Below, in pieces: positions 3,252 to 63,895 of a stretch of 64,000 nucleotides of DNA. Both the position numbers and the translations under genes were made by a program. Below the pieces are notes generated by a model, which was given only the letters and a program-made list of their open reading frames with translations, made no database searches and had not been told where the DNA came from. This stretch comes from Azonexus sp. (GTDB taxonomy: Bacteria > Pseudomonadota > Gammaproteobacteria > Burkholderiales > Rhodocyclaceae): assembly GCA_031277255.1 (NCBI GenBank), contig JAITMS010000017.1, positions 177-64,176 of the forward strand, in the 5' to 3' direction. Positions within the stretch are counted from its first letter, which is position 1. Each line of letters opens with the position of its first letter.

Positions 3252-3959
3252 TCAATCGCCGCCGCCGCCGCCGCATCCCCCGCCACAGCCGCCGCCATCT
3301 CCGCCACTGCCGGAATCATCGCTACCTGAGGCATCACTGCCTGAATGGCCGAAACCGTCGGTGCCGCCGTCGATTGATGAGCGACCGAAGTCGCCGCCGC
3401 ATTGCGCGCCGGCGACTCCGCTCTGGCGTAATTGCGCGCAATCCGGGTGGTAAACGTAGCCGTTGGGAATGTTGTATTTCACGTCCAGGGCAAAAAGCAG
3501 CGGCAGCCGGGTGGGTTTCACCGGATGGATGCCTTCTTCCTTGCAGCAGTGCCACCAGACGCGCCGCAGCCCGGCGTTTGATGCCTTGTGCGCTGGCGAC
3601 AGCACAACAGCGGGCGTGTGATGAAAAAAGCGGCCAAAGGCTTTGTCGCAGAAATGTCGATATTCACGGGTGTAGAGGATGAATTCATGCCAGAGGTCGT
3701 CGGCGACTTGCGATGGCATGGCGACATATTGACGACCGCTGCGAAGATAAGCCATGAAAAACTGACGCAGCCCCTGACTGACCAAGGCTGTTTCCTTGCG
3801 GGTAAATTGCGGGTAACGCTTGGCCAGTTTATCGAGCAGACCGGGCGGCCAGCGATAATCGCGGATAAATTCGGCGCGCCGCGCCTGTTTCACCGTATGA
3901 AAGAGTGGCCAGGCCAAAAGGAATAAAAGGGCGGCTATCGCTACCGAGAGGTATCCCAT
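3252..3959 (-). CDS. membrane-anchored hypothetical protein with C-terminal Gly/Ser/Asp/Cys low-complexity tail
   Basis: Start trimmed to MGYLSVAIAALLFLL (CAT at 3957-3959) so it no longer overlaps yajD. One N-terminal TM, a conserved-looking WHEFILYTREY core, and the tail GGDGGGCGGGCGGGGGD. Confidence 0.55.
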   Translation of the reverse strand: MGYLSVAIAALLFLLAWPLFHTVKQARRAEFIRDYRWPPGLLDKLAKRYPQFTRKETALVSQGLRQFFMAYLRSGRQYVAMPSQVADDLWHEFILYTREYRHFCDKAFGRFFHHTPAVVLSPAHKASNAGLRRVWWHCCKEEGIHPVKPTRLPLLFALDVKYNIPNGYVYHPDCAQLRQSGVAGAQCGGDFGRSSIDGGTDGFGHSGSDASGSDDSGSGGDGGGCGGGCGGGGGD

Positions 3960-3987
3960 TATGGCCGCGCCATCATTTGGCCGACGC

Positions 3988-4356
3988 TCATTTCCCGCCC
4001 TTGAGCAGCCCTTGCAACCCGGCAAAGGGATTGTGCGTAGCGCCGCCGCCCCGCTCGTTGCAGGCGTCGGTGTAGCCGCGGTCGGCTTCGATCTGTTTCT
4101 GGTGTTCGTTGTCGTGGCAGTAGAGGCAGAGCAGTTCCCAGTTGCTGCCGTCCGGCGGATTGTGGTCGTGGTTGTGGTCGCGGTGGTGCACGGTCAGTTG
4201 ACTGAGGTTGGCGTGGGTGAATTCGCGGGCGCAGCGGCCACAGATCCAAGGGTAGAGCTTGAGCGCCCGTTCCCGATAACCGGCGGCGCGGTCGGCGGCG
4301 GTCTGGCGGGCGGTGGCGGTGATTTGGTCGAGTCTGGCGTGGTCGATGGTTTTCAT
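3988..4356 (-). CDS. yajD: HNH endonuclease family protein YajD
   Basis: 122 aa. YRERALKLYPWICGRCAREF...HHRDHNHDHNPPDGSNWELLCLYCHDNEH closely matches my recollection of E. coli YajD. Confidence 0.85.
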   Translation of the reverse strand: MKTIDHARLDQITATARQTAADRAAGYRERALKLYPWICGRCAREFTHANLSQLTVHHRDHNHDHNPPDGSNWELLCLYCHDNEHQKQIEADRGYTDACNERGGGATHNPFAGLQGLLKGGK

Positions 4357-4435
4357 GGGCGGCTCCTGAGGATCAGCCGATTTTAGCGGCTTGGCCGTAA
4401 AATCCGGTTTTTCTCAAAAGCGTTCAAGCTGAACA

Positions 4436-5326
4436 ATGCTGCCGATCCGTTACATCGAGCCGGTTTTCCGCCCGCCGAGCGAGGCGGAATCGCTGATTCT
4501 GCCGGTCACCGACGGTTGTTCGTGGAATCACTGCACCTTTTGCGACATGTACACCGCGCCGCAAAAGAAATTCCGCGCCCGTGAGGAGGCGGAAGTCATC
4601 GACAGCCTGCGTCTCACCGGCGAGCGTTACGGCGAGCGTATCCGCCGCGTGTTTCTCGCCGATGGCGACGCCCTGGCGCTGCCGACGCGCCGCCTCCTTG
4701 CCATCCTCGCCGCCATCCGCACCCATCTGCCCGCCGTGCGGCGCATTTCCAGCTACTGCCTGCCGCGTAATCTGCGTAAAAAATCGCCGGACGAAATGAG
4801 CGAACTGGCGGCGGCGGGCCTGTCGATGGCCTATGTCGGCGCCGAGTCGGGCGACGACGCCGTGCTGGACAAGGTGAATAAAGGCGAAACCTTTGAGAGC
4901 ACCTGCGTAGCCTTGGAAAAACTGGGCGCGGCCGGTATCAGCCGCTCGGTGATGATTCTCAACGGCCTCGGCGGTGGGGTTTTATCGCCGCAACATGCCG
5001 AAAATTCAGCGCGGCTCGCCAATGCCACCCAGCCGGAATATCTGGCGACGCTGGTGGTCAGCTTGCCCCAGGGCGAAGCGCGTTTTCGCGCCGCCTTTCC
5101 CGAATGGGAACCGCTCGACCAGCGCGGTTTGTTCGCCGAAATGGAACATTTTCTCTCGGCGCTGGAATTGCAACGCACGGTCTTCAGGAGCGACCATGCC
5201 TCCAACTGGCTCATCCTCAAAGGCACGCTGGGGGCGGACAAGGAACGCCTGTTGGCGGAAGTGCGCTCAGCCATCGCCGCGCCCGCAACAGCCCGCCTGC
5301 GCCCGGCCTGGGCGCGCGGGTTGTAG
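4436..5326 (+). CDS. radical SAM domain protein (function unknown)
   Basis: 296 aa. Cys triad near the N-terminus, GCSWNHCTFCDMY (spacing Cx4Cx2C), followed by FLADGDAL and GAESG segments typical of the radical SAM half-barrel. Confidence 0.7.
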   Translation: MLPIRYIEPVFRPPSEAESLILPVTDGCSWNHCTFCDMYTAPQKKFRAREEAEVIDSLRLTGERYGERIRRVFLADGDALALPTRRLLAILAAIRTHLPAVRRISSYCLPRNLRKKSPDEMSELAAAGLSMAYVGAESGDDAVLDKVNKGETFESTCVALEKLGAAGISRSVMILNGLGGGVLSPQHAENSARLANATQPEYLATLVVSLPQGEARFRAAFPEWEPLDQRGLFAEMEHFLSALELQRTVFRSDHASNWLILKGTLGADKERLLAEVRSAIAAPATARLRPAWARGL

Positions 5327-7714: not shown

Positions 7715-7862
7715 AGGACAGAAGACGGAGGACAGAAGACAGAGGGGTATTCAGTGAGCAGCCATCAGAAAATTTTCGGCGCGAAGCGCCGCAAATCAGC
7801 AGACCACAGACTACCTCTCTGTCTTCTGTCTTCTGTCCTCCGTCTTCTGCCCTCCGTCTTCC
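7714..7862. repeat. heptamer-armed hairpin element, copy 1
   Basis: Left arm 7714-7746 (GAG GACAGAA GACGGAG GACAGAA GACAGAG GG). Right arm 7816-7862 is the complement (CTCTGTC TTCTGTC...). The 69-nt core contains CGGCGCGAAGCGCCG. Confidence 0.8.
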
Positions 7863-9900: not shown

Positions 9901-10383
9901 TCAACGCCGCCGGAAGGTCTTGTGGCAGTCCTGGCAGGTGTCGTAGACGGCCTGATAGGGCTTGTCCAGTTGCTTGCGATCTTTGGTTTGCGCGGCAATC
10001 AGCAGCTTGTCGGTGGCGGCGATGAAAGCCGCCTTGGCCTCGGTGAATTTTTCCGGCTGCCGCCAGACTTCGGCGGTGGCCTTGGTCGGCGGATAGTCGG
10101 TGTCGGTGCCGAAATGCGACCACGGGCCATCGCGCTGGGCAATCAGATCCTCGGTCATGGCGAGGAACTTGTCGGCCTTGTAGTCGCCTTTTCTCAGCAT
10201 CACGCCCATCGGCTCAAAGCTGCGGATGATCGCCTTGAATGCCTCTTGCCGGGTTTTGACCGGCTGGCCGGGACGGGTGTCCTCGACTTCACCACAGGCG
10301 GCGATGAGCGTGACGGCAAGGAGCAGGGCGAGAGGCAGGGCAGGGCGCATGGCGGCAGCAAAAAAGAGGGAAAGGAGGCGCAT
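9901..10383 (-). CDS. cytochrome c' (class II cytochrome c), probable lipoprotein
   Basis: C-terminal haem motif CQDCHKTF, four-helix-bundle size. Signal peptide with lipobox LIAAC. Start taken at MRLLSLFF. Confidence 0.7.
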   Translation of the reverse strand: MRLLSLFFAAAMRPALPLALLLAVTLIAACGEVEDTRPGQPVKTRQEAFKAIIRSFEPMGVMLRKGDYKADKFLAMTEDLIAQRDGPWSHFGTDTDYPPTKATAEVWRQPEKFTEAKAAFIAATDKLLIAAQTKDRKQLDKPYQAVYDTCQDCHKTFRRR

Positions 10384-11321: not shown

Positions 11322-13175
11322 ATGTCCGCTCGTCCCATCCGCAATATCGCCATCATCGCCCACGTCGATCATGGCAAAACCACGCTGGTCGACCAACTGC
11401 TCCGTCAATCCGGCACCTTTGCCGCCCACCAGCAGGTCGATGAGCGCGTCATGGATTCCGGCGATCTGGAACGGGAGCGCGGCATTACCATTCTGGCCAA
11501 AAACACGGCCATTGATTATCAGGGCGTCCACATCAATATCGTCGATACGCCGGGCCACGCCGATTTCGGCGGCGAGGTCGAGCGCGTGCTGGGCATGGTC
11601 GATGGCGTCGTGCTCCTGGTCGACGCCGTTGAAGGGCCGATGCCGCAGACGCGCTTCGTGACCAAAAAGGCGCTGGCCCAGGGTTTGCGCCCGATCGTGC
11701 TGGTCAACAAGGTCGACCGCGACGGCGGCGACCCGGACAACGCCGTCAATCTCACCTTCGACCTTTTCGACAAACTGGGCGCGACCGACGAACAGCTTGA
11801 TTTTCCGATTGTTTACGCCTCCGGCCTTAACGGCTGGGCGGCGCTGTCGCTCGATGCGCCGCGCGTCGACATGAAACCCCTGTTCGACATGATTCTGTCG
11901 CACGTGCCCGCGCCCGACGCCGATGTTGACGCGCCCCTGCAATTCCAGATTTCGGCGCTCGATTACTCCTCCTACGTCGGCCGCATCGGCGTTGGCCGGA
12001 TCAAGCGCGGCAGGGTCAAAACCGGGCAGAACGTGCTCATCCTGTTCGGCACCGAGGAAGAAGCCATCGAGCACGAACGGACGCCGATCAAAGCCAGAAT
12101 CGGCCAGGTTTTCGGTTACCAGGGCCTGAACAAGATCGAACTGGACGAAGGCTGCGCCGGTGACATCGTGCAGATTACCGGCATTGAAGACCTCGTTCTC
12201 GGCTGCACCGTGACCGACCCGGAACAGCCGGAAACCCTGCCCCTCCTCAAAATCGACGAACCGACCCTGGCCATGCAGTTCATGGTCAACACCAGCCCGC
12301 TGGCTGGCACCGAAGGCAAGTTCGTCACCAGCCGCCAGTTGCGCGACCGCCTGCACAAAGAACTCCTGACCAACATGGCGCTGCGCGTGCACGACACGCC
12401 GAATGGCGATATTTTCGATGTCGCGGGCCGCGGCGAACTGCATCTCGGCATCCTCCTCGAAAACATGCGCCGCGAAGGCTACGAACTGGCCGTTGGCCGT
12501 CCGCGCGTGGTCAAAAAGACGATCGGCGGCGTCGACTGCGAACCTTACGAAATGCTCACCGTCGACGTCGAAGAAGACCATCAGGGCGGCGTCATGGAAG
12601 CCCTTGGGCTACGCCGGGGCGAAATGCTCGACATGATCCCGGATGGCCGCGGCCGCGTGCGCATCGAATACCGCATTCCGGCGCGCGGCCTGATCGGCTT
12701 TCAGGGCGAATTTATGAATCTGACCCGCGGCACCGGCCTCATCAGCCACGTCTTTGACGAATACGCGCCGGTCAGAGACGGCGGCGTTGCCGAACGCCGC
12801 AACGGCGTGCTGATTTCGCAAGACAACGGCGAAGCCGTGGCCTATGCGCTGTGGAAACTGCAAGACCGGGGCCGGATGTTCGTCAACCCCGGCGAAAAGC
12901 TCTACGAAGGCATGATTATCGGCATCCACAGCCGCGACAACGATCTCGTCGTCAACCCGATCAAAGGCAAACAACTGACCAATGTCCGCGCCTCCGGCAC
13001 CGACGAAGCGGTGCGCCTGGTGCCGCCAATCCAGTTGAGCCTCGAAGCCGCCATCGAATTCATCGCCGACGACGAACTGGTCGAACTGACGCCCAAATCC
13101 ATCCGCCTGAGAAAACGCCATTTAACCGAAATCGAACGCAAGCGAGCGAGCAGAGGACAGAGGACTGAGGACTGA
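11322..13175 (+). CDS. typA: translational GTPase TypA/BipA
   Basis: 617 aa. [36 protein letters not shown]-motifs and BipA-specific C-terminal domain. The last 8 codons lie in the repeat arm. Confidence 0.95.
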
Positions 13176-50471: not shown

Positions 50472-50555
50472 ATACCGTTCGGGCTGAGCCTGTCGAAGCC
50501 CGTTTCATCCTCCCTCCGCACCGCCCTTCGACAAGCTCAGGGCGAACGGGAGGGG
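50472..50555. repeat. about 85-bp REP/MITE-like element (GGGCTGAGCCTGTCGAAGCCC ... CTTCGACAAGCTCAGGGCGAACGG)
   Basis: Internal inverted repeats. Near-identical copy in the opposite orientation at 53149-53240. Confidence 0.7.
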
Positions 50556-51895: not shown

Positions 51896-52975
51896 TCACC
51901 CCAAGCGCCCCGGCAGCACGTCGCGCAGCATGATGGCGGCGTCGCGCAGGGTGGCTTCGGTGGTCGGCCAGTCGATGCAGCCATCCGTCACCGAGCAGCC
52001 GTATCTGAGTTTTGTGAGATCGGCGGGGATGGCCTGGTTGCCTGCTTCGAGGTTGGATTCAATCATCACGCCGAGGATCGATTTGTTGCCCGCGCGAATC
52101 TGGCTGACCACGTCGCTCATCACCAGCGGCTGCATGTCCGGCTTTTTCGAACTGTTGGCGTGCGAACAGTCGACGACCAGATTGGCCGGGAGTCTGGCTT
52201 TTTGCATGGCGGCTTCGGCCATCGCCACCGAAACGGTGTCGTAATTGGGGCCGTTGTCGCCGCCGCGCAGAACGACGTGGCCGTAGGCGTTGCCGGTGGT
52301 GCGGACGATGGTGACGCGGCCATCGTTGTTGAGGCCAAGGAAAGCGTGCGGCTTGGAAGCGGAGAGCACAGCATTGGTGGCAACGAGCAGATCGCCGCTG
52401 GTGGCGTTTTTGAAACCGACCGGGGTGGATAGCCCCGACGACATTTCACGGTGCGTCTGCGATTCCGTGGTGCGGGCGCCGATGGCGCTCCAGGTGATGA
52501 GGTCGCCGTAATACTGCGGGCCGTAGGGGTCGAGCGCCTCGGTTCCGGCGGGTAGCCCCAGTTCATTGACTTGCAGCAGGAATTCGCGGGCGCGTTCCAT
52601 GCCGACGTCGACGCGGAAAGAGTCGTCCATGAACGGGTCGTTGATGTAGCCCTTCCAGCCGACCGTGGTGCGCGGCTTCTCAAAATAGACGCGCATGATG
52701 ATTTGCAGGGTGTCGCCGACTTCATCGGCGAGTTTTTTCAAGCGCCGGGCATAGTCCAGACCGGCGACCGGATCGTGGATGGAGCAGGGGCCGACGACGA
52801 CGAAAATACGGTGATCCCGGCGGTCGAGGATATTGCACAGCAACTGGCGGTTTTCGCTGACAGTCGCCTCCGCCCTGGCCGAAAGCGGCAGGCGGGCATG
52901 AATTTCGGCAGGTGCGGGCATGGCGTCAAAAGCCGCGACATTGGCGTTTTCGATGGGGGTTGCGGTTTGGTTCAT
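51896..52975 (-). CDS. 3-deoxy-7-phosphoheptulonate (DAHP) synthase, class I (AroF/G/H type)
   Basis: 359 aa. VVVGPCSIHD, KPRTTVGWKGYINDP, GARTTESQ.HRE motifs. Confidence 0.9.
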   Translation of the reverse strand: MNQTATPIENANVAAFDAMPAPAEIHARLPLSARAEATVSENRQLLCNILDRRDHRIFVVVGPCSIHDPVAGLDYARRLKKLADEVGDTLQIIMRVYFEKPRTTVGWKGYINDPFMDDSFRVDVGMERAREFLLQVNELGLPAGTEALDPYGPQYYGDLITWSAIGARTTESQTHREMSSGLSTPVGFKNATSGDLLVATNAVLSASKPHAFLGLNNDGRVTIVRTTGNAYGHVVLRGGDNGPNYDTVSVAMAEAAMQKARLPANLVVDCSHANSSKKPDMQPLVMSDVVSQIRAGNKSILGVMIESNLEAGNQAIPADLTKLRYGCSVTDGCIDWPTTEATLRDAAIMLRDVLPGRLG

Positions 52976-53100
52976 GGGGTCGGTTCGTCAATCATGTCTT
53001 TGATGGCCGCCACTTTGGCTTGCCGCATGGGGCCGTGGCGCAGAAGTGAGATTTTATCCTGTCCGGTGAGCTTGCCGCCGCAGTTATTTTTGCGCCGCGC
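52972..53100 (-). pseudogene. orphan duplicate of the mfd 3' end (about 40 codons)
   Basis: Minus-strand frame ...KNNCGGKLTGQDKISLLRHGPMRQAKVAAIKDMIDEPTP* compared with the Mfd tail ...KNRNYKLAGPEKISLLRHSPTLQAKVAAIKDMIRELTQAA*. 77/100 nt identical by hand alignment. Its TGA overlaps the DAHP synthase ATG. Confidence 0.7.
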
Positions 53101-53148
53101 AGTAGCGTCGGCTTGAATGGCTAGCGCATTTTCTGTTCAAGTCCTTAC

Positions 53149-53240
53149 ACTCCCGTTCGTCCTGAGCTTGTCGAAGGACGGTGCGGAGAGAGGAACGGAG
53201 GCTTGAACCGGGCTTCGACAGGCTCAGCCCGAACGGTATG
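53149..53240. repeat. about 90-bp REP/MITE-like element, inverted copy of 50472-50555
   Basis: Its reverse complement aligns nearly base-for-base with the 50.5-kb copy (CCGTTCGGGCTGAGCCTGTCGAAGCCCG...CTTCGACAAGCTCAGGRCGAACGGGAG). Confidence 0.7.
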
Positions 53241-53284
53241 GGGGGTGTATGCGCTTGAATCAAAGCCGATCTAGCGCCTGACTT

Positions 53285-54136
53285 TCACGATAACTCAGGC
53301 AACAATTGATGTCGCCAGAGAGAATCCTCGAAGCGCGAGCGGAAAAAACCGAAGTGTCCTATCCGTTCCGCGCCGATGTCTTGCGGCGCAATGCGCTTCA
53401 TGGTTTTGGGCGCGGTCGTATAGAAACCGTGCATTGACTCTGTATTGCGGGCAGACATCATCTCGTCGTCGGTAAAAGAGAACGAAGTAATCGGCACGCT
53501 GACCGCGGCGAATTTTTCCCGCACCGCCTGCCCCTCCGCGCCGACGACATAATCCGGGTTGAGGCACCACTGACGCCATTGATCCATGACGCCGCGAGGC
53601 AAGTCACCGACCTTGCGTAGCCGCTTGCCTGGAAAATAACCGCAGGCTCGCGTCATCAAGGGAGCCACGACAAACCAGAGCCACCATACTTTCCATTTGA
53701 GGTCAGGCGTATTTTCAATCCAGTATCCGCTCCCGGTTGCGATGGTTACGGCCTTGCTCACCCGGTTCCAGTTGGGTACAAGCCCAAGGATTTGCCCGCC
53801 CAGGCTGTGACCGAGCCAGTAAATCGGGCGAGACGGAACGCGGGCCTGAACAGCATCAATCATCGCGTCGCAATCGCACTGCGCCCAATCGAAGATATTT
53901 ACCCGGAGCCGACGAATATCGCCGTCTCTGGAGAGTCCAGTACCCGAATAGTCAAAGGTTGCGACAAGATAACCCTGATTGGAAAGCCAGGCGGCGAATG
54001 GCGCGTAATAATCCTGGCGAATGCCCATCGCGGGAACGACAAGAACCGCGGCTTTTGCTTCTTGTTTCGGCTGGAAAAAACTCGCATGAACCGAGCGGCC
54101 ATTTTGGGTCGTTATGCGCGAGGATTGAATGGTCAT
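53285..54136 (-). CDS. alpha/beta-fold hydrolase
   Basis: 283 aa. Nucleophile elbow GHSLGG and a C-terminal His region (RIGHFGFF). Lower GC than the backbone. Confidence 0.75.
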   Translation of the reverse strand: MTIQSSRITTQNGRSVHASFFQPKQEAKAAVLVVPAMGIRQDYYAPFAAWLSNQGYLVATFDYSGTGLSRDGDIRRLRVNIFDWAQCDCDAMIDAVQARVPSRPIYWLGHSLGGQILGLVPNWNRVSKAVTIATGSGYWIENTPDLKWKVWWLWFVVAPLMTRACGYFPGKRLRKVGDLPRGVMDQWRQWCLNPDYVVGAEGQAVREKFAAVSVPITSFSFTDDEMMSARNTESMHGFYTTAPKTMKRIAPQDIGAERIGHFGFFRSRFEDSLWRHQLLPELS

Positions 54137-54292
54137 TGTGGCTCCAGGGTTAAATATGCTGTGTTATCTGAAAGGCGCTAACGGCCAAGCTGAACGGCAA
54201 GTGCAAGCGGGCCGCGACTGGCCGACAAAAGAAAGATTATCTGGGCCGCCCACTTTTACTTACCCGCCTTGAGCGCCGAGTTAAGCTGCCCT

Positions 54293-54598
54293 TTAGTAAA
54301 CATGGGATTTCACCAAAAAGAGTAGAACACATGGGAGAGCAATGGCTGTAACGCAGGCGCCGATTAATGTACGGTTCGCGCGAGAGCCATAAGCAACAAA
54401 CAAAGCAACGAATCCAAGCAGGATTGGAATGGGAACAAACATAAACACAAGCTGCCACTGGGCTTCTTGTTTAACAAAAACCGCCTTCAAATAAGCGATC
54501 GCCAAATTAGCAGTTACGTAAATTGATAGAGTCAATATAGCCAATACGATCCACGTCGAAATTCGCACTCTAGACAGTCTATTGAACTTTGGCGACAT
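54293..54598 (-). CDS. small 3-TM membrane protein, hypothetical
   Basis: 101 aa with three hydrophobic helices. About 45-49% GC. Its start is 3 nt after the stop of the RHH gene. Confidence 0.5.
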   Translation of the reverse strand: MSPKFNRLSRVRISTWIVLAILTLSIYVTANLAIAYLKAVFVKQEAQWQLVFMFVPIPILLGFVALFVAYGSRANRTLIGACVTAIALPCVLLFLVKSHVY

Positions 54599-54601
54599 GG
54601 T

Positions 54602-54883
54602 TTAGTACGTATCAGTTGGCGCAGGCGGCGTGTCCGACGCATTGGCAAGAATCGCCAAGGCGTCTTTCGTGGTGGTTGTGGCGGCAATTTCGCGCAGCTT
54701 TGCCATATAGGCCATCTGTTCCCGAATCAGCAGGCCATCGTGTATCAGTTCGGCATACAGGCGATTCTCGGAAACACCCAATTGTTCGGCAAGGCGCTTG
54801 CCGCGAATCCGCTCGTTTTGCTGTATCCGCAAGGGAAAAGAGGTTTTGCTCATGGTCATTTTCTGGTGTGTCAGCGACTGCAT
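54602..54883 (-). CDS. ribbon-helix-helix (CopG/Arc-like) protein, putative
   Basis: SKTSFPLRIQQNERIRGKRLAEQLGVSENRLYAELIHDGL fits a beta-strand/helix/helix pattern. Start ambiguous (54883, 54859 or 54853). The ORF begins 8 nt after the mfd stop. Confidence 0.5.
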   Translation of the reverse strand: MQSLTHQKMTMSKTSFPLRIQQNERIRGKRLAEQLGVSENRLYAELIHDGLLIREQMAYMAKLREIAATTTTKDALAILANASDTPPAPTDTY

Positions 54884-54890
54884 TCTGAGT

Positions 54891-57800
54891 CTATGCCGCC
54901 TGAGTCAATTCCCGAATCATATCTTTTATCGCCGCCACTTTGGCTTGCAGAGTGGGCGAGTGGCGCAGGAGGGAGATTTTTTCCGGCCCGGCGAGTTTGT
55001 AGTTACGGTTTTTTTGGATCAGATGGATGATCCGGGCTGGCTCGATCGGTGGGTTTTGGGCAAATTCGGGGCTGAACTGGAGGGTGATCTGGTCGTTACC
55101 GGCGTCGAGTTTGGCGATTTGTAGCGGTTTGATGAGTAGCCGCAGGCGGTGCGTCGCCAGTAGCGCCTCGGTTTGCGGCGGCAGGGGGCCGAAGCGGTCG
55201 ATCAGTTCTTCTTGCAGGGCGTCGATTTCTTCGCGGGTTTCGCCGTTGGCCAGCCGTTTGTAGAGGGTCAGGCGCTCGTGCACGTCGGGGCAGTAGTTGT
55301 CGGGGAGGAGGGCCGGGGCGCGCAGGTTGATTTCGCCGCTGACGCCGATGGGCTGGGTCAAATCCACTGTTTCCAGAACTTTGCCTTGTTTGAGGCAGCC
55401 GACGGCGCGGTTGAGCATGTCGGCGTACAGATTGAAGCCGACTTCCTGCATTTCGCCGGATTGGTTGTCGCCCAGGACTTCGCCCGCGCCGCGAATTTCG
55501 AGGTCGTGCATGGCGAGGTAAAAACCGGCGCCGAGGTCTTCCATCATCTGGATCGCTTCGAGCCGCTGCCTGGCTTGCCGGGTCATCGCTTTTTCGTCAT
55601 TGACCAGAAGATAGGCGTAAGCCTGATGGTGCGAGCGGCCAACGCGGCCGCGCAACTGGTGCAACTGGGCGAGGCCGAATTTTTCGGCGCGGTTGATGAG
55701 AATGGTGTTGGCGTGCGGATTGTCGATGCCGGTTTCGATAATGGTGGTGCATAAGAGCAGATTGGCGCGCTGGCTGGTGAAGTCGCGCATCGCCCGTTCC
55801 AGGTCGCGTTCGGCCATCTGGCCGTGGCCGACGGCGAGACGCGCCTCCGGCAGGAGTTTTTCCAGCTTCTCCCGCATGGCCTCGATGCTGTGCACTTCGT
55901 TGTGCAGGAAATACACCTGGCCGCCGCGTTTCAATTCGCGCAGCGCGGCTTCGCGGATGATGCCGTCGGATAGCCGCGAGACAAAGGTTTTGATCGCCAG
56001 CCGCTTTTGCGGCGCGGTGGCGATGACCGAAAAATCGCGCAAGCCTTCGAGGCTCATCGCCAGTGTGCGCGGAATCGGCGTCGCTGTCAGCGTCAGCACG
56101 TCGACCTCGGCGCGCATGGCTTTGAGGGTTTCTTTCTGGCGCACGCCGAAACGGTGTTCTTCGTCGATGATGACGAGGCCCAGACGCTTGAATCTGACCG
56201 CCTTGCCGATCAGTTTGTGGGTGCCGATGATGATGTCGATCTTGCCCGCGGCGAGATCGTCGAGCGCCTCTCCCGCTTCTTTCGGTGTCCGAAAGCGCGA
56301 CAGTTCGGCGATTTTGACCGGCCATTCGGCAAAGCGGTCGGCGAAAGTCTGGTAATGCTGCTCGCACAACAGCGTCGTCGGACAGAGCACGGCCACCTGC
56401 CTGCCGCCAGCGACGGCGCAGAAAGCGGCGCGCAGCGCCACTTCCGTTTTGCCGAAACCGACATCGCCGCAGACCAGCCGATCCATCGGCTTGCCGGATT
56501 TCATGTCGTCGAGCACGGCGGCAATGGCCGCTGCCTGATCGGCGGTTTCCTCAAAAGCGAAGCCGTCGGCAAAGGTTTCGTAATCCTTGTCGGCAAAGCT
56601 GAAGGCATGGCCTTGGCGGGCGGCGCGGGCGGCGTAGAGGGCGAGCAGTTCGGCGGCGGTGTCGCGGGCCTGTTCCGCCGCCTTGCGTTTGGCTTTTTCC
56701 CACTGGCCGGAACCGAGCGTGTGCAGGGGCGCGGCTTCCGGGTCGGCACCGGAATAACGCGCGATGACGGCGAGTTGCGCCACCGGGACAAAGAGCTTGG
56801 CGTCATTGGCGTAATGGAGTTCGAGAAATTCCTGCTCGCCCAGCCCTAGATCCATCCGCACCAAGCCCTGATAACGGCCAATGCCGTGACTCTCATGGAC
56901 GACCGGATCGCCGATCTTGAGTTCGGTCAGGTCTTTGAGCCAGTTGTCGAAAGCGGCTTTTTTCGCCGCTTCCCGCCGGGCGCGGCGCGGGCTACCAGCG
57001 AACAGTTCAGCTTCGCTGACGAAAGCCAGATTGTCGATGACAAAACCGGCGTGCAACGGCGCAACGCCAAGGGCAAGCTTGTCGCCGCCGTCGACAAAAG
57101 CCTTGAGATCAGGGCAGGCCGCTGGTTTGAGGCCGTGTTCGGCGAGCATCGCCGCCAGCGTCTCACGACGGCCCGCGCTTTCCGCCACCAGCAGAACCCG
57201 CCCCGGCCAGGCGGCGAGAAAGTGTTTGAGGGCGGCCAGCGGATCGTCGGCGCGGCGGTCGATGGCGACGCTGTCGCTCAGAGGACAGAAGACAGAGGAC
57301 AGAGGACTGTGAATTTGCGGCGGCGATCCCCCCATCCCGACCTTCCCCCCGCTTGCGAGGGTGCCTCCCCTCTCCCGCTTGCGGGAGAGGGGCAGGGGTT
57401 GAGGGCTGGCCGCCGGTAACGGGCTGTCTTCCGTCTTCTGTCCTCTGTCTTCTGTTTTCAAAACCAGCCGGGCGTAGGGTTTAGCGGCGCTGAAAAACTC
57501 CTCATCGGTCAGGAACAGTTCTTCCGGCGTCAGCAAGGGCCGCGCCTTGTCGCCTTGCAGGAGCCTGTAGCGCGAACGGGTGTCCATCCAGAAGGCGGCG
57601 ATTGCGGCGGGCGCGTCGCCTTGTGTGACGAACACGGCATTCGGCGGCAGATAGTCGAACAACGTCGCCGTCGCCGAAAAAAACAGGGGCAGGTAATACT
57701 CGATCCCGGCGCTGGCGATACCGCTGGAGACATCCTTGTAAATCCCCGATTTCGCCGGGTCGCCCTCAAAACGCTCGCGGAAAGCCTGCCGGAAGCGCGT

Positions 57801-58490
57801 CCGCCCGGCGTCGTCGAGCGGAAATTCGCGGGCGGGCAGGAGACGGATTTCGTTGACCGGATAGACCGTGCGCTGCGTATCGACATCAAAAGTGCGGATG
57901 CTGTCGATCTCGTCATCAAAGAGATCGAGCCGGTAAGGCAGGGGCGACCCCATCGGAAACAGGTCGATCAACCCGCCGCGAATCGAATACTCGCCCGGCG
58001 ACACCACCTGCGTCACATGGGCGTAACCGGCCAGCGTCACCTGATCGCGGAACTTCCCGGCATCGAGCCGCTGCCCCTTTTGGAAAGCAAAGGTATAAGC
58101 CGCCATGAACTCCGGCGGCGCCAACCGTCCCACCGCTGTCGCCGCCGGCGCCAGCAGAATATCCAGTTCCCCCTGCAAGGCCGCCCACAGCGTCGCCAGC
58201 CGCTCGGAAACCAGATCCTGATGCGGCGAAAAATGGTCGTAAGGCAAAGTCTCCCAATCCGGCAGCAGACGCACGCGCAATTGCGGCGCGAACCAGGGGA
58301 TTTCTTCGAGCAAACGCCGGGCATCCGCCGCCGTCGCCGTCACCACCGCCAGCAAACGCCCGGCGCGGACAGCCGCCGCGGACAGCATCAAGGCATCGCC
58401 GGAGCCGACAGGCGACGGCAGATCAAGACGATGACCGGGACGGGGCAGGGTGGGGAGAAAAGAGCGGGGGAGCAGGGGAGAAGCGGACAC
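54891..58490 (-). CDS. mfd: transcription-repair coupling factor Mfd (carries an in-frame repeat insertion)
   Basis: 1199 aa. UvrB-homology N-terminus, RNAP-interaction domain, GDVGFGKTEVA Walker A, DEEHRFG, TATPIPRT, TRG motif region, C-terminal D7. Confidence 0.95.
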   Translation of the reverse strand: MSASPLLPRSFLPTLPRPGHRLDLPSPVGSGDALMLSAAAVRAGRLLAVVTATAADARRLLEEIPWFAPQLRVRLLPDWETLPYDHFSPHQDLVSERLATLWAALQGELDILLAPAATAVGRLAPPEFMAAYTFAFQKGQRLDAGKFRDQVTLAGYAHVTQVVSPGEYSIRGGLIDLFPMGSPLPYRLDLFDDEIDSIRTFDVDTQRTVYPVNEIRLLPAREFPLDDAGRTRFRQAFRERFEGDPAKSGIYKDVSSGIASAGIEYYLPLFFSATATLFDYLPPNAVFVTQGDAPAAIAAFWMDTRSRYRLLQGDKARPLLTPEELFLTDEEFFSAAKPYARLVLKTEDRGQKTEDSPLPAASPQPLPLSRKRERGGTLASGGKVGMGGSPPQIHSPLSSVFCPLSDSVAIDRRADDPLAALKHFLAAWPGRVLLVAESAGRRETLAAMLAEHGLKPAACPDLKAFVDGGDKLALGVAPLHAGFVIDNLAFVSEAELFAGSPRRARREAAKKAAFDNWLKDLTELKIGDPVVHESHGIGRYQGLVRMDLGLGEQEFLELHYANDAKLFVPVAQLAVIARYSGADPEAAPLHTLGSGQWEKAKRKAAEQARDTAAELLALYAARAARQGHAFSFADKDYETFADGFAFEETADQAAAIAAVLDDMKSGKPMDRLVCGDVGFGKTEVALRAAFCAVAGGRQVAVLCPTTLLCEQHYQTFADRFAEWPVKIAELSRFRTPKEAGEALDDLAAGKIDIIIGTHKLIGKAVRFKRLGLVIIDEEHRFGVRQKETLKAMRAEVDVLTLTATPIPRTLAMSLEGLRDFSVIATAPQKRLAIKTFVSRLSDGIIREAALRELKRGGQVYFLHNEVHSIEAMREKLEKLLPEARLAVGHGQMAERDLERAMRDFTSQRANLLLCTTIIETGIDNPHANTILINRAEKFGLAQLHQLRGRVGRSHHQAYAYLLVNDEKAMTRQARQRLEAIQMMEDLGAGFYLAMHDLEIRGAGEVLGDNQSGEMQEVGFNLYADMLNRAVGCLKQGKVLETVDLTQPIGVSGEINLRAPALLPDNYCPDVHERLTLYKRLANGETREEIDALQEELIDRFGPLPPQTEALLATHRLRLLIKPLQIAKLDAGNDQITLQFSPEFAQNPPIEPARIIHLIQKNRNYKLAGPEKISLLRHSPTLQAKVAAIKDMIRELTQAA
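57279..57456. repeat. heptamer-armed hairpin element, copy 3, inside the mfd coding sequence
   Basis: Left arm 57279-57307 (CAGAG GACAGAA GACAGAG GACAGAG GAC). Right arm 57425-57456 (TGTCTTC CGTCTTC TGTCCTC TGTCTTC TGTT). The core contains the palindrome CCCCTCTCCCGC-TT-GCGGGAGAGGGG (57367-57392). Confidence 0.8.
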
Positions 58491-63750: not shown

Positions 63751-63895
63751 CAGAGGACAGAAGACTGAGGACAGAAGACAGAGAGGTGGTCAGTCGTCAG
63801 TCAGTTACCGGCGCGTAGCGCCGCAAACCAACAGATTACAGACCACTGAATACAAATCTGTCTTCTGTCCTCTGTCTTCTGTCTTCTGTCCTCTG
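63751..63895. repeat. heptamer-armed hairpin element, copy 4
   Basis: Left arm CAGAG GACAGAA GACTGAG GACAGAA GACAGAG AGG. Right arm CTGTCTTCTGTCCTCTGTCTTCTGTCTTCTGTCCTCTGG. The core is the reverse complement of the copy 1 core (GTATTCAGTG..., CGGCGCGTAGCGCCG). Confidence 0.8.

What the first reader, a model, noticed from the sequence alone, without database searches (positions are those of the whole stretch)
52972..55025. Diverged direct duplication of the mfd 3' end brackets a 1.8-kb low-GC islet; the orphan copy is still stop/start-coupled to the DAHP synthase gene
On the minus strand, the last 35-40 codons of mfd read ...KNRNYKLAGPEKISLLRHSPTLQAKVAAIKDMIRELTQAA* (54891-55010). They recur at 52972-53100 as ...KNNCGGKLTGQDKISLLRHGPMRQAKVAAIKDMIDEPTP*. 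My ungapped hand alignment of 52990-53089 against 54915-55014 gives 77/100 identical nt. This includes an 18-nt identical core, GCCGCCACTTTGGCTTGC (53006-53023 and 54931-54948), and 22/28 identical residues. The orphan copy keeps its reading frame, and its TGA overlaps the ATG of the DAHP synthase gene (ccATGAa at 52972-52975). It therefore looks like the original mfd terminus, translationally coupled to the aro gene. Between the two copies lies DNA of about 47-50% GC, against about 65% for the backbone. This DNA encodes an RHH protein, a 3-TM protein and an alpha/beta hydrolase, and also holds a REP element. All three genes are co-oriented with mfd, and the RHH ORF begins 8 nt after the present mfd stop. 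This layout is what remains when an element integrates into the 3' end of a gene and carries a replacement 3' end. No integrase is present, so it is either a decayed island or the product of a different mechanism. I do not know of mfd as a described integration target.
Basis: partly seen in the sequence, partly recalled or inferred. Interest (0 to 1): 0.7.

Follow-up and report, generated by a model that had tools for sequence, protein, structure and literature searches.

The report
Displaced mfd tail beside foreign islet
A 1.8-kb piece of foreign DNA sits between the DNA-repair gene mfd and the aromatic-pathway gene next to it; it arrived with its own copy of the last ~35 codons of mfd and pushed the old copy downstream as a dead fragment, a known kind of insertion scar at a gene not reported as a target in the papers searched.

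Summary
The repeat is real. Window 52979-53090 and 54904-55015 are direct repeats (77/100 nt, one 18-nt identical run). The Smith-Waterman score is 90, against 19 +/- 2.4 for shuffles.

In about 20 related Azonexus/Dechloromonas genomes the mfd stop overlaps the DAHP-synthase start (ATGA). The downstream orphan copy keeps exactly this junction.

The two tails are as diverged at silent sites (dS about 0.74) as mfd genes of different genera. The exception is a 24-nt core that is 92% identical and carries substitutions seen in no relative. I read them as two xenologous tails joined by recombination, not a simple duplication.

The islet is a decayed patchwork:
- the last 6 codons of a PIN_3 toxin gene;
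- a 3-TM ORF;
- an alpha/beta hydrolase;
- a host REP.

There is no integrase. A termite-gut relative (L099) carries the same PIN_3 module (92% nt) just after its own mfd, inside a toxin/defence cluster.

The short spacing after the mfd stop (7 nt, not 8) comes from counting the toxin-gene remnant as part of the ORF.

The mechanism is unresolved between homology-driven 3'-end displacement and an integrase that was later lost. This is a known kind of scar at a new locus, of modest interest.

The parts
54891..58490 (-). mfd (transcription-repair coupling factor), intact, 1199 aa
   Evidence: ORF. Collinear with 80 relatives at 65-83% aa identity over the C-terminal 249 aa.
54900..55014 (-). Upstream, functional copy of the mfd tail repeat (KNRNYKLAGPEKISLLRHSPTLQAKVAAIKDMIRELTQ, then AA*)
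   Evidence: It matches the family consensus through the last native residue. Of its 12 private changes, 9 are at codon position 3.
54931..54948 (.). 18-nt core, identical in both copies (upstream copy)
   Evidence: It encodes QAKVAA; the QAK state is absent from 42 close loci and 120 Mfd fragments.
54854..54890 (-). Left junction: 7-nt spacer after the mfd stop, then the remnant of a PIN_3 toxin gene (last 6 codons MQSLTH, stop TAG mutated to CAG, and the intergenic spacer)
   Evidence: Homology to L096/L099/L093-95 starts exactly at 54883. The PIN_3 C-terminus reads ...GQLMQSLTH* in L096/L099.
54602..54853 (-). 83-aa partner gene of PIN_3 toxins (putative antitoxin; RHH-like N-terminus not proven)
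   Evidence: The family has 175 members, nearly all 82-85 aa. In 27 of the 39 loci fetched that carry this gene, it lies 3-9 nt (25 nt in a few) downstream of a PF13470 gene. 92% nt identity to L096/L099. AF2 pLDDT 74; Foldseek gave no hit with E<1.
54293..54598 (-). 101-aa ORF with 3 predicted TM segments, 43% GC, no homologues found
   Evidence: Only a sub-threshold DUF485 hit. No NCBIfam or PADLOC hit. Homology to L099 ends at 54596.
53285..54136 (-). alpha/beta-hydrolase (Hydrolase_4/S33 type), 283 aa
   Evidence: Pfam PF12146, E 1.3e-16. More than 5000 homologues; the best outside this genome is 73% identical and sits in an unrelated chromosomal context, L097.
53147..53241 (.). REP-like palindromic element of the host genome
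   Evidence: Inverted repeat I2. Second copy at about 50474-50551. The L081 assembly breaks inside it.
53091..53146 (-). Right-junction spacer of unknown origin; it contains a short near-repeat (ACTGCGCGGCGCAA / ACTGCGGCGGCAAG)
   Evidence: Read directly. No match anywhere in the fetched loci.
52972..53090 (-). Orphan mfd tail (KNNCGGKLTGQDKISLLRHGPMRQAKVAAIKDMIDEPTP*); no start codon; its TGA overlaps the aro ATG
   Evidence: Of its 9 private changes, 8 are at codon positions 1-2.
53006..53023 (.). 18-nt core (downstream copy)
51896..52975 (-). DAHP synthase (class I) gene, in its native junction with the orphan tail
   Evidence: PF00793, E 1.7e-78. The ATGA overlap with mfd is conserved in about 20 relatives.

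Best explanation
This is a 3'-end displacement scar.

**Shown**
- The ancestor had the compact arrangement in which the mfd stop overlaps the DAHP-synthase start.

**Inferred**
- DNA from another member of the Azonexaceae entered. That donor's own mfd was already followed by toxin-antitoxin/accessory genes, as seen today in L099.
- It recombined with the host through the homologous mfd tail, either as one-ended homologous plus illegitimate recombination or as a RecA-type single crossover of a circularised fragment.
- mfd now ends in a working tail followed by the imported cargo. The previous tail, about 33-38 codons, was pushed 1.9 kb downstream. There it survives only as the untranslated leader-side flank of aro and is decaying.
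- The 24-nt nearly identical core, with substitutions unique to the two copies, is the recombination or conversion patch.
- Later events trimmed the cargo. A deletion removed the PIN_3 toxin and everything between it and the mfd stop, leaving an orphan partner gene. A host REP inserted near the right end.
- No dedicated integrase is needed.
For: - **Synteny and double alignment.** The contiguous tail+aro of relatives aligns to both copies.
- **Divergence between the tails.** dS is 0.74 and dN/dS 0.26. That dS equals the mfd divergence between this genome and other genera, 0.71-0.93. The orphan's private changes at codon positions 1-2 affect only 8 of 66 sites, too few for a copy that had been neutral for that long. 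So both tails spent most of their history inside working mfd genes.
- **Mosaic identity along the repeat.** Identity is 75% / 92% / 62%. The unique shared states are confined to the core.
- **Donor-type arrangement exists.** L096/L099 have an mfd tail, then vapC, PIN_3 and the same partner gene at 92% nt, then a candidate defence gene.
- **The cargo is recent.** The RHH gene has dS 0.225 to L099, far more recent than the genome split.
- **No mobility genes.** None in the islet, and none in 4.5 kb of the L099 insertion.
- **Ragged right junction.** It has filler DNA and a small local repeat.
- **Precedent.** The same mechanism is proposed for orphan arrays in Rhs and T6SS effector loci (PMC5361080).
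Against: - Homologous recombination between sequences only about 80% identical is very inefficient, and homology-facilitated illegitimate recombination is rarer still (PMC5361080).
- No donor-derived stretch of mfd upstream of the repeat could be detected. Identity to all relatives is flat at 78-82%.
- The last 402 nt of the window's mfd are not L099-like (dS 0.71).
- A linear one-ended event does not by itself explain the shared unique core. It needs an added conversion step or a circular substrate.
- All rate arguments rest on 33 codons.
Confidence: 0.42

Rival explanations
1. An integrative element with a site-specific recombinase used a site inside the mfd tail as attB and carried a replacement tail in its attP, as prophage e14 does at icd/icdC. 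The 18-nt core is the common att core. The integrase and most of the element were later deleted, and the deletion endpoint is the mfd-stop/PIN_3-remnant junction.
For: - Direct repeats of a gene's 3' end flank foreign DNA, and the ORF is restored.
- An identical core with states unique to the two copies sits between diverged arms.
- A second lineage (L096/L099) has foreign TA/defence DNA starting right after its mfd stop and shares a 92%-identical module.
- The left junction looks like a deletion scar, cutting through a toxin gene 7 nt after the mfd stop.
- e14/icd-icdC is a documented precedent (PMC13626634).
Against: - No recombinase, excisionase or other mobility gene in the islet, nor in the first 4.5 kb of the L099 insertion.
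- The L099 mfd tail has a different sequence at the core (AACGACAAGGTCGCGGC, 6 of 17 differ). The two insertions therefore did not use one att core.
- The repeat extends on both sides of the core. In 3'-end-targeting elements known to me (e14, tRNA islands; my own knowledge) the element copy runs from the crossover to the gene end only.
- No mfd-tail fragments on phage records or IMG/VR contigs.
- No paper in the library describes mfd as an att site.
- The PIN_3 module is itself an 846-nt patch found in other contexts.
Confidence: 0.3
2. In-situ duplication. An insertion by illegitimate recombination or repair duplicated about 112 nt of the host's own mfd tail, giving identical copies at first. 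The copies then diverged in place, the orphan neutrally.
For: - The copies share derived states not seen in relatives.
- Differences by codon position, 4/7/13, are roughly what one neutral copy plus one constrained copy would give.
Against: - The shared unique states are confined to about 20 nt. Outside the core the copies are no closer to each other (62-75%) than to other genera.
- dS of 0.74 would make the event as old as the genus-level splits. Yet the orphan has changed at only 12% of position-1/2 sites, the islet GC is not ameliorated, and the RHH gene is at dS 0.225 from L099.
Confidence: 0.1
3. Assembly artefact. The MAG contig is mis-joined at the REP (53147-53241), so the islet and the orphan-aro segment are not adjacent in the real genome.
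For: The independent Logan contig L081 stops inside the REP at 53210, and its last 30 nt also match the other REP copy. Exact-protein look-ups for aro found no second assembly.
Against: - The assembled order mfd-aro-serB, all co-oriented, matches relatives.
- Even if mis-joined, both tails exist. L081 confirms mfd with its present tail fused to the PIN_3 remnant, and the orphan is preceded by non-mfd DNA.
Confidence: 0.05

Closest known systems
Prophage e14 (and phage 21) at icd of E. coli K-12: icd plus the icdC pseudogene
   Same: Foreign DNA sits in the 3' end of a housekeeping protein gene. The gene stays intact because the insert supplies an alternative 3' end with mostly conservative differences. 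The displaced original 3' end remains as a C-terminal pseudogene fragment at the far end (PMC13626634).
   Different: e14 encodes its integrase and excises. Here no recombinase or other mobility gene is present, the copies are far more diverged (about 23% nt), homology lies on both sides of the identical core, and the insert is 1.8 kb of patchwork.
C-terminal (3'-end) displacement at Rhs, CDI and T6SS effector-immunity loci, proposed to occur by homology-facilitated illegitimate recombination
   Same: A conserved upstream coding region anchors incoming DNA that brings a new 3' end plus cargo. The old 3' end is shifted downstream as an orphan without a start codon. No integrase is involved (PMC5361080).
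   Different: Those loci are polymorphic-toxin genes whose tips are under diversifying selection, and they build arrays. Here the gene is a housekeeping repair factor, the two tails encode the same function, and there is a single orphan.
cis-mobilisable elements (CIMEs) and decayed genomic islets flanked by att repeats without an integrase (from my own knowledge, not tested)
   Same: A small insert bounded by direct repeats of the target's 3' end, with no recombinase of its own.
   Different: In CIMEs the flanking att sites are near-identical and match those of a co-resident ICE. No such partner element or matching att site was found here.
PIN-domain toxin-antitoxin modules (VapBC-like); here PF13470 PIN_3 plus a downstream 83-aa partner
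   Same: A conserved two-gene unit, 3-9 nt apart (25 nt in a few loci), that moves as an 846-nt patch and is common in accessory regions.
   Different: The gene order is toxin first. The partner has no Pfam or NCBIfam family. In the window the toxin is deleted apart from 6 codons.

Membership tests
Integrase-mediated integrative element in the 3' end of a protein gene (e14/icd type) | Direct repeat of the target gene's 3' end at both ends of the insert | tested here: met
   112 nt at 75-79% identity, score 90 against 19 +/- 2.4 for shuffles. Relatives align to both copies.
Integrase-mediated integrative element in the 3' end of a protein gene (e14/icd type) | Target ORF kept intact by the upstream copy | tested here: met
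   mfd is open through a consensus-like tail ...DMIRELTQ followed by AA*.
Integrase-mediated integrative element in the 3' end of a protein gene (e14/icd type) | Site-specific recombinase (and usually an excisionase) encoded in the insert | tested here: not met
   The islet holds only three ORFs: the PIN_3 partner, the 3-TM ORF and the hydrolase.
Integrase-mediated integrative element in the 3' end of a protein gene (e14/icd type) | Identical core shared by attL and attR | tested here: inconclusive
   An 18-nt identical run exists and carries unique states. It lies in the middle of the homology, and a conversion or crossover patch would explain it equally well.
Integrase-mediated integrative element in the 3' end of a protein gene (e14/icd type) | Recurrence: independent insertions at the same core, or a free attP form | tested here: not met
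   L099 has an insertion after mfd but a different core sequence, and no second tail within 4.5 kb. No phage or IMG/VR hits.
3'-end displacement by homology-facilitated or one-ended recombination (Rhs/T6SS type) | Conserved upstream gene retained with a new 3' end plus new downstream cargo | tested here: met
3'-end displacement by homology-facilitated or one-ended recombination (Rhs/T6SS type) | Old 3' end retained downstream as an orphan, without its 5' part or a start codon | tested here: met
   The orphan frame 53136-52972 has no ATG, GTG or TTG at its head. It shows a decay pattern.
3'-end displacement by homology-facilitated or one-ended recombination (Rhs/T6SS type) | Related genomes with the donor arrangement (same gene followed by the same cargo) | tested here: met
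   L096/L099: mfd tail, then PIN_3 and the partner gene at 92% nt.
3'-end displacement by homology-facilitated or one-ended recombination (Rhs/T6SS type) | Donor-derived segment of the anchor gene upstream of the repeat; illegitimate joint with microhomology | tested here: inconclusive
   No mosaic boundary is detectable in mfd, because the nearest relatives are only about 80% identical. The joint region has filler DNA and a short local repeat, but no clear microhomology.
Type II toxin-antitoxin module (PIN_3 toxin plus partner) | Adjacent toxin and partner genes both present | tested here: not met
   Only the last 6 codons of the toxin remain in the window. The pair is intact in 27 of the 39 fetched loci that carry the partner gene.
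Ribbon-helix-helix (CopG/Arc/MetJ) DNA-binding fold, claimed for the 83-aa protein | N-terminal strand-helix-helix recognised by a profile or fold search | tested here: inconclusive
   No Pfam or NCBIfam family. The AF2 monomer has a coil at residues 5-11 and helices at 13-26 and 30-39. The Foldseek best hits have E>1, with Arc repressor at rank 4 and the TacA2 antitoxin at rank 3.

The most novel reading that the evidence does not exclude
The mfd tail is a dedicated attachment site for an undescribed family of small toxin-antitoxin/defence islets in Azonexaceae. These islets have no integrase of their own and are mobilised in trans. They carry a surrogate mfd tail, so that neither mfd nor the translationally coupled DAHP-synthase gene is damaged. 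The window and L099 would be two members, and the 18-nt core would be the crossover site.
Probability: 0.15. Interest if true: 0.5.

Novelty: new member of a known kind. Interest (0 to 1): 0.3.

Why it matters
- **How a tight gene junction can be split.** The mfd stop overlaps the DAHP-synthase start across a whole family. Here accessory DNA opened that junction without inactivating either gene, because the newcomer brought a spare gene end and the old end stayed attached to the downstream gene.
- **A possible hotspot.** Two lineages carry toxin-antitoxin or candidate-defence DNA at this spot, so the mfd/aro junction may be a small hotspot in Azonexus/Dechloromonas-type bacteria.
- **A caution for annotation.** The apparent 93-aa 'RHH' ORF is an 83-aa gene fused to a toxin-gene remnant. 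The orphan tail should be annotated as a pseudogene fragment, not as a leader peptide.
- **Limits.** It does not open a new biological principle.

Tried and rejected
- **GC and GC3 as a marker of a foreign tail.** Rejected. The mfd tail has equally low GC3 in 42 relatives, and the two copies have similar GC3 by hand count.
- **Nearest-neighbour identity of each tail to relatives.** Both are about 70%, so this is uninformative. Per-segment identities are too noisy at 24-51 nt.
- **A second orphan tail in 80 related loci.** None found; all scores were 30 or below.
- **The 5-kb gaps between mfd and aro in Azospira-type genomes.** These are a conserved patatin/unknown/hybrid-kinase block, not islands.
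- **L051 versus L053 as an empty/filled pair.** They share only mfd itself, so they are not informative.
- **A closer relative of the window's Mfd.** The search of 5.8 billion proteins returned only gene fragments at 77% identity or less. Two short Mfd fragments inside long contigs turned out to be split genes.
- **Phage records and IMG/VR for mfd-tail fragments.** Nothing relevant.
- **The junction spacers.** BLAST found no matches. The 30-nt inverted match to aro (I3) is probably chance.
- **Rfam and promoter/terminator scans of the islet.** Nothing above noise.
- **PADLOC on the islet proteins.** No hits.
- **Exact look-ups of the aro product, to confirm the right junction independently.** Not on record.

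Full report

Yes. On the minus strand the last part of mfd (54904-55015) recurs at 52979-53090. The repeat finder reports a 112-nt direct repeat at 75% identity. The 18-nt core occurs exactly twice in the window, at 53006 and 54931, and is the longest identical run. The downstream copy is open to a TGA that overlaps the ATG of the DAHP-synthase gene.

Several details need correction:
- The islet (53101-54890) is 53.4% GC, not 47-50%. Only the 3-TM ORF is low, at 43%. mfd and aro are 62-63%.
- The lower GC of the last 200 nt of mfd is not a sign of foreign origin. GC3 falls in the same way in 42 relatives.

**2. Host and native arrangement**

The hydrolase carries the NCBI name 'MAG: Azonexus sp.'. 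The closest Mfd C-termini in 185,000 species genomes are Azonexus/Dechloromonas at up to 83% aa identity.

In these relatives aro follows mfd directly. In about 20 loci the mfd stop overlaps the aro start as ATGA (gap -4), and in most others the gap is 1-30 nt. None of the 80 loci has the islet genes or a second mfd tail.

BLASTN of relatives against the window gives two collinear hits. One runs through mfd to about 54901. The other starts at 53073-53090 and continues without a break into aro. So the orphan plus aro is the original junction, and about 1.9 kb has been interposed together with a second tail.

**3. What the islet contains**

- **The 'RHH' ORF.** The 93-aa ORF is an 83-aa gene (54853-54602). 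Its family has 175 members, nearly all 82-85 aa and mostly Rhodocyclales/Burkholderiales. In 27 of the 39 fetched loci that carry it, it sits 3-9 nt (25 nt in a few) downstream of a 141-aa PF13470 PIN_3 toxin gene.
- **The toxin remnant.** Window 54883-54854 is homologous to the last six codons of that toxin gene (MQSLTH) with its stop changed from TAG to CAG. Homology to the intact modules begins exactly at 54883, 7 nt after the mfd stop.
- **The RHH fold is plausible but not shown.** There is no profile hit. The AF2 model has pLDDT 74 with helices at 13-26 and 30-39 after an extended N-terminus. No Foldseek hit has E<1; Arc repressor is at rank 4.
- **Where the homology ends.** Homology to the PIN_3 modules stops at 54596, where other loci begin an MmeI-like gene and the window begins the 43%-GC 3-TM ORF.
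- **The hydrolase.** It belongs to a very large family. The closest outside copy (73%) lies in an unrelated chromosomal context.
- **The REP.** The element at 53147-53241 has a second copy 2.7 kb away, so it belongs to the host repertoire and probably inserted later.

The islet is thus a patchwork, not the remains of one recognisable element, and it has no recombinase.

**4. A second case**

A termite-gut metagenome contig (L096, extended by L099, 4.9 kb) starts in an Azonexaceae-type mfd. Directly after the mfd stop it carries, in order:
- a vapC-type PIN gene;
- the PIN_3 gene;
- the same partner gene (92% nt, dS 0.225 to the window);
- an MmeI fragment;
- a 495-aa protein matching the PADLOC candidate defence family PDC-M11A (E 5e-139);
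- an ASCH protein and an AAA protein.

Neither aro, an integrase nor a second tail is visible in the 4.5 kb. The mfd of that contig is no closer to the window (dS 0.71) than other genera are. The PIN_3 module is itself an 846-nt patch, 93.6% identical between L099 and L100, which have otherwise unrelated flanks.

**5. Relationship of the two tails**

Between the copies dN is 0.19 and dS 0.74, with differences of 4, 7 and 13 at codon positions 1, 2 and 3. That dS equals the divergence between this genome's mfd and those of other genera, 0.71-0.93.

Polarising the differences against the consensus of 42 relatives gives this split:
- the upstream copy has 12 private changes, 9 at position 3, as expected for a working gene;
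- the orphan has 9 private changes, 8 at positions 1-2, including non-conservative replacements of conserved residues (NRSY to NCGG, R to D, L to P), as expected for decay.

The orphan has changed at only 12% of position-1/2 sites. That is too little if it had been neutral for the whole time implied by dS 0.74. Both tails therefore most likely evolved inside functional mfd genes of different lineages, and one of them was imported.

Identity along the repeat is mosaic: 75% in the proximal 51 nt, 92% in a 24-nt core and 62% in the distal 24 nt. Outside the core, each copy is as close to other genera as to its partner. The core encodes QAKVAAI. The QAK states occur in none of the 42 close loci, the other loci, or 120 further Mfd C-terminal fragments. 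I interpret the core as a patch exchanged between the two tails, either the crossover/heteroduplex of the insertion event or a later conversion. All of this rests on 33 codons and is indicative only.

**6. Mechanism**

By contiguity, the proximal part of the present tail (joined to mfd) and the distal part of the orphan (joined to aro) are host DNA, and the foreign DNA lies between them. Two routes fit.

(a) Homology-driven displacement. DNA from a related bacterium that already had accessory genes after mfd (the L099 type) recombined through the mfd tail. The other end was joined illegitimately, or the substrate was circular and a single crossover occurred. This needs no integrase. It explains why both tails are ordinary Azonexaceae mfd tails at genus-level divergence, and it matches the mechanism proposed for orphan 3' ends in Rhs and T6SS loci (PMC5361080). 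Its weaknesses are the low efficiency of recombination at about 80% identity and my failure to detect a donor-derived stretch further upstream in mfd.

(b) Integrase-mediated insertion of an element carrying a surrogate tail, as for e14 at icd/icdC (PMC13626634), followed by loss of the integrase. The identical core and the recurrence of TA/defence DNA after mfd favour this. Against it:
- no mobility gene is present;
- the core sequence in L099 is different;
- the homology lies on both sides of the core;
- nothing relevant turned up on phage or IMG/VR sequences;
- nothing relevant turned up in the literature library.

I put (a) at about 0.4, (b) at about 0.3, an in-situ duplication followed by divergence at about 0.1, and a mis-join at the REP at about 0.05. 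An independent assembly (L081) confirms the left half at 100% identity over 2906 nt but ends inside the REP.

**7. Known systems and novelty**

The layout works like e14/icd-icdC and like C-terminal displacement at Rhs/T6SS loci. It fails the membership test for an integrative element on the recombinase and on recurrence at one core. It meets the descriptive features of 3'-end displacement. mfd was not found as a described target in the paper library. I rate it a new member of a known kind, of modest interest.

**8. Verdict**

- The 'integrated element carrying a replacement 3' end' reading is only partly supported.
- The 'decayed island' is better described as a small accessory patchwork at a possible hotspot.
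- The decisive data would be an empty-site relative, the far end of the L099 insertion, or a circular junction.

Noticed in passing
window 57274-57463 (inside mfd); other copies at 7720-7862 and 63759-63894, partial copy at 13152: A MITE-like element is inserted in frame in the mfd coding region. It has heptad-repeat inverted ends (AGAAGAC/AGAGGAC) and a central palindrome CCTCTCCCGCAAGCGGGAGAGGGG. It adds about 49 aa to a linker compared with L009, and relatives lack it (BLAST gap at 57463-57274). The ORF stays open.
   Followed up: partly
window 53147-53241 and about 50474-50551: Two copies of a ~95-nt REP-like palindromic element (arms CTGAGCYTGTCGAAGS) in inverted orientation. The independent assembly L081 breaks inside one copy, so this family probably fragments assemblies of this genome.
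   Followed up: partly
L099 2258-3745 (also 3702-4181 and 4163-4696): Downstream of mfd in a termite-gut relative lies a 495-aa PIN/GNAT/EVE-like protein matching the PADLOC candidate defence family PDC-M11A (E 5e-139). It is followed by an ASCH protein and an AAA protein, so the mfd-downstream site there holds a defence-type cluster.
   Followed up: partly
L099 929-1774 vs L100 3059-3904: The PIN_3 toxin gene and its 83-aa partner form an 846-nt unit with sharp boundaries. It is 93.6% identical between two contigs whose flanks are otherwise unrelated. In both contigs the unit is followed by the start of an MmeI-family gene (MPLSWNEIR...). The partner family has no Pfam or NCBIfam model.
   Followed up: partly
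L086 vs L087/L088 (gene at 10001-10249 / 1995-2243): The same 82-aa partner protein (P0126) occurs with no PIN_3 gene upstream in L086, and with a frameshifted PIN_3 and an IS21-type insertion nearby in L087/L088. Toxin loss with partner retention is therefore recurrent in this family, as in the window.
   Followed up: no
L046, L048, L049, L052, L055-L059, L062 (between mfd stop and aro): In Azospira-type Rhodocyclaceae a conserved ~5.1-5.3-kb block (patatin-like phospholipase, an unknown protein, and a PAS hybrid histidine kinase) separates mfd from aro. The tight mfd/aro coupling is therefore specific to the Azonexus/Dechloromonas and Accumulibacter/Propionivibrio groups.
   Followed up: partly
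window 53094-53123 vs 52647-52676: A 30-nt inverted match (80%) links the spacer just upstream of the orphan tail and a conserved stretch inside aro (PRTTVGWKGY). BLAST against relatives gave no support, so it is probably chance.
   Followed up: yes
window 53081-53105 (minus strand): At the left edge of the orphan there is a short near-tandem repeat (ACTGCGCGGCGCAA ... ACTGCGGCGGCAAG). Relative to the consensus KNRSYK there is an apparent 3-nt deletion plus a 6-nt GGC insertion. This may be slippage or repair at the junction.
   Followed up: no
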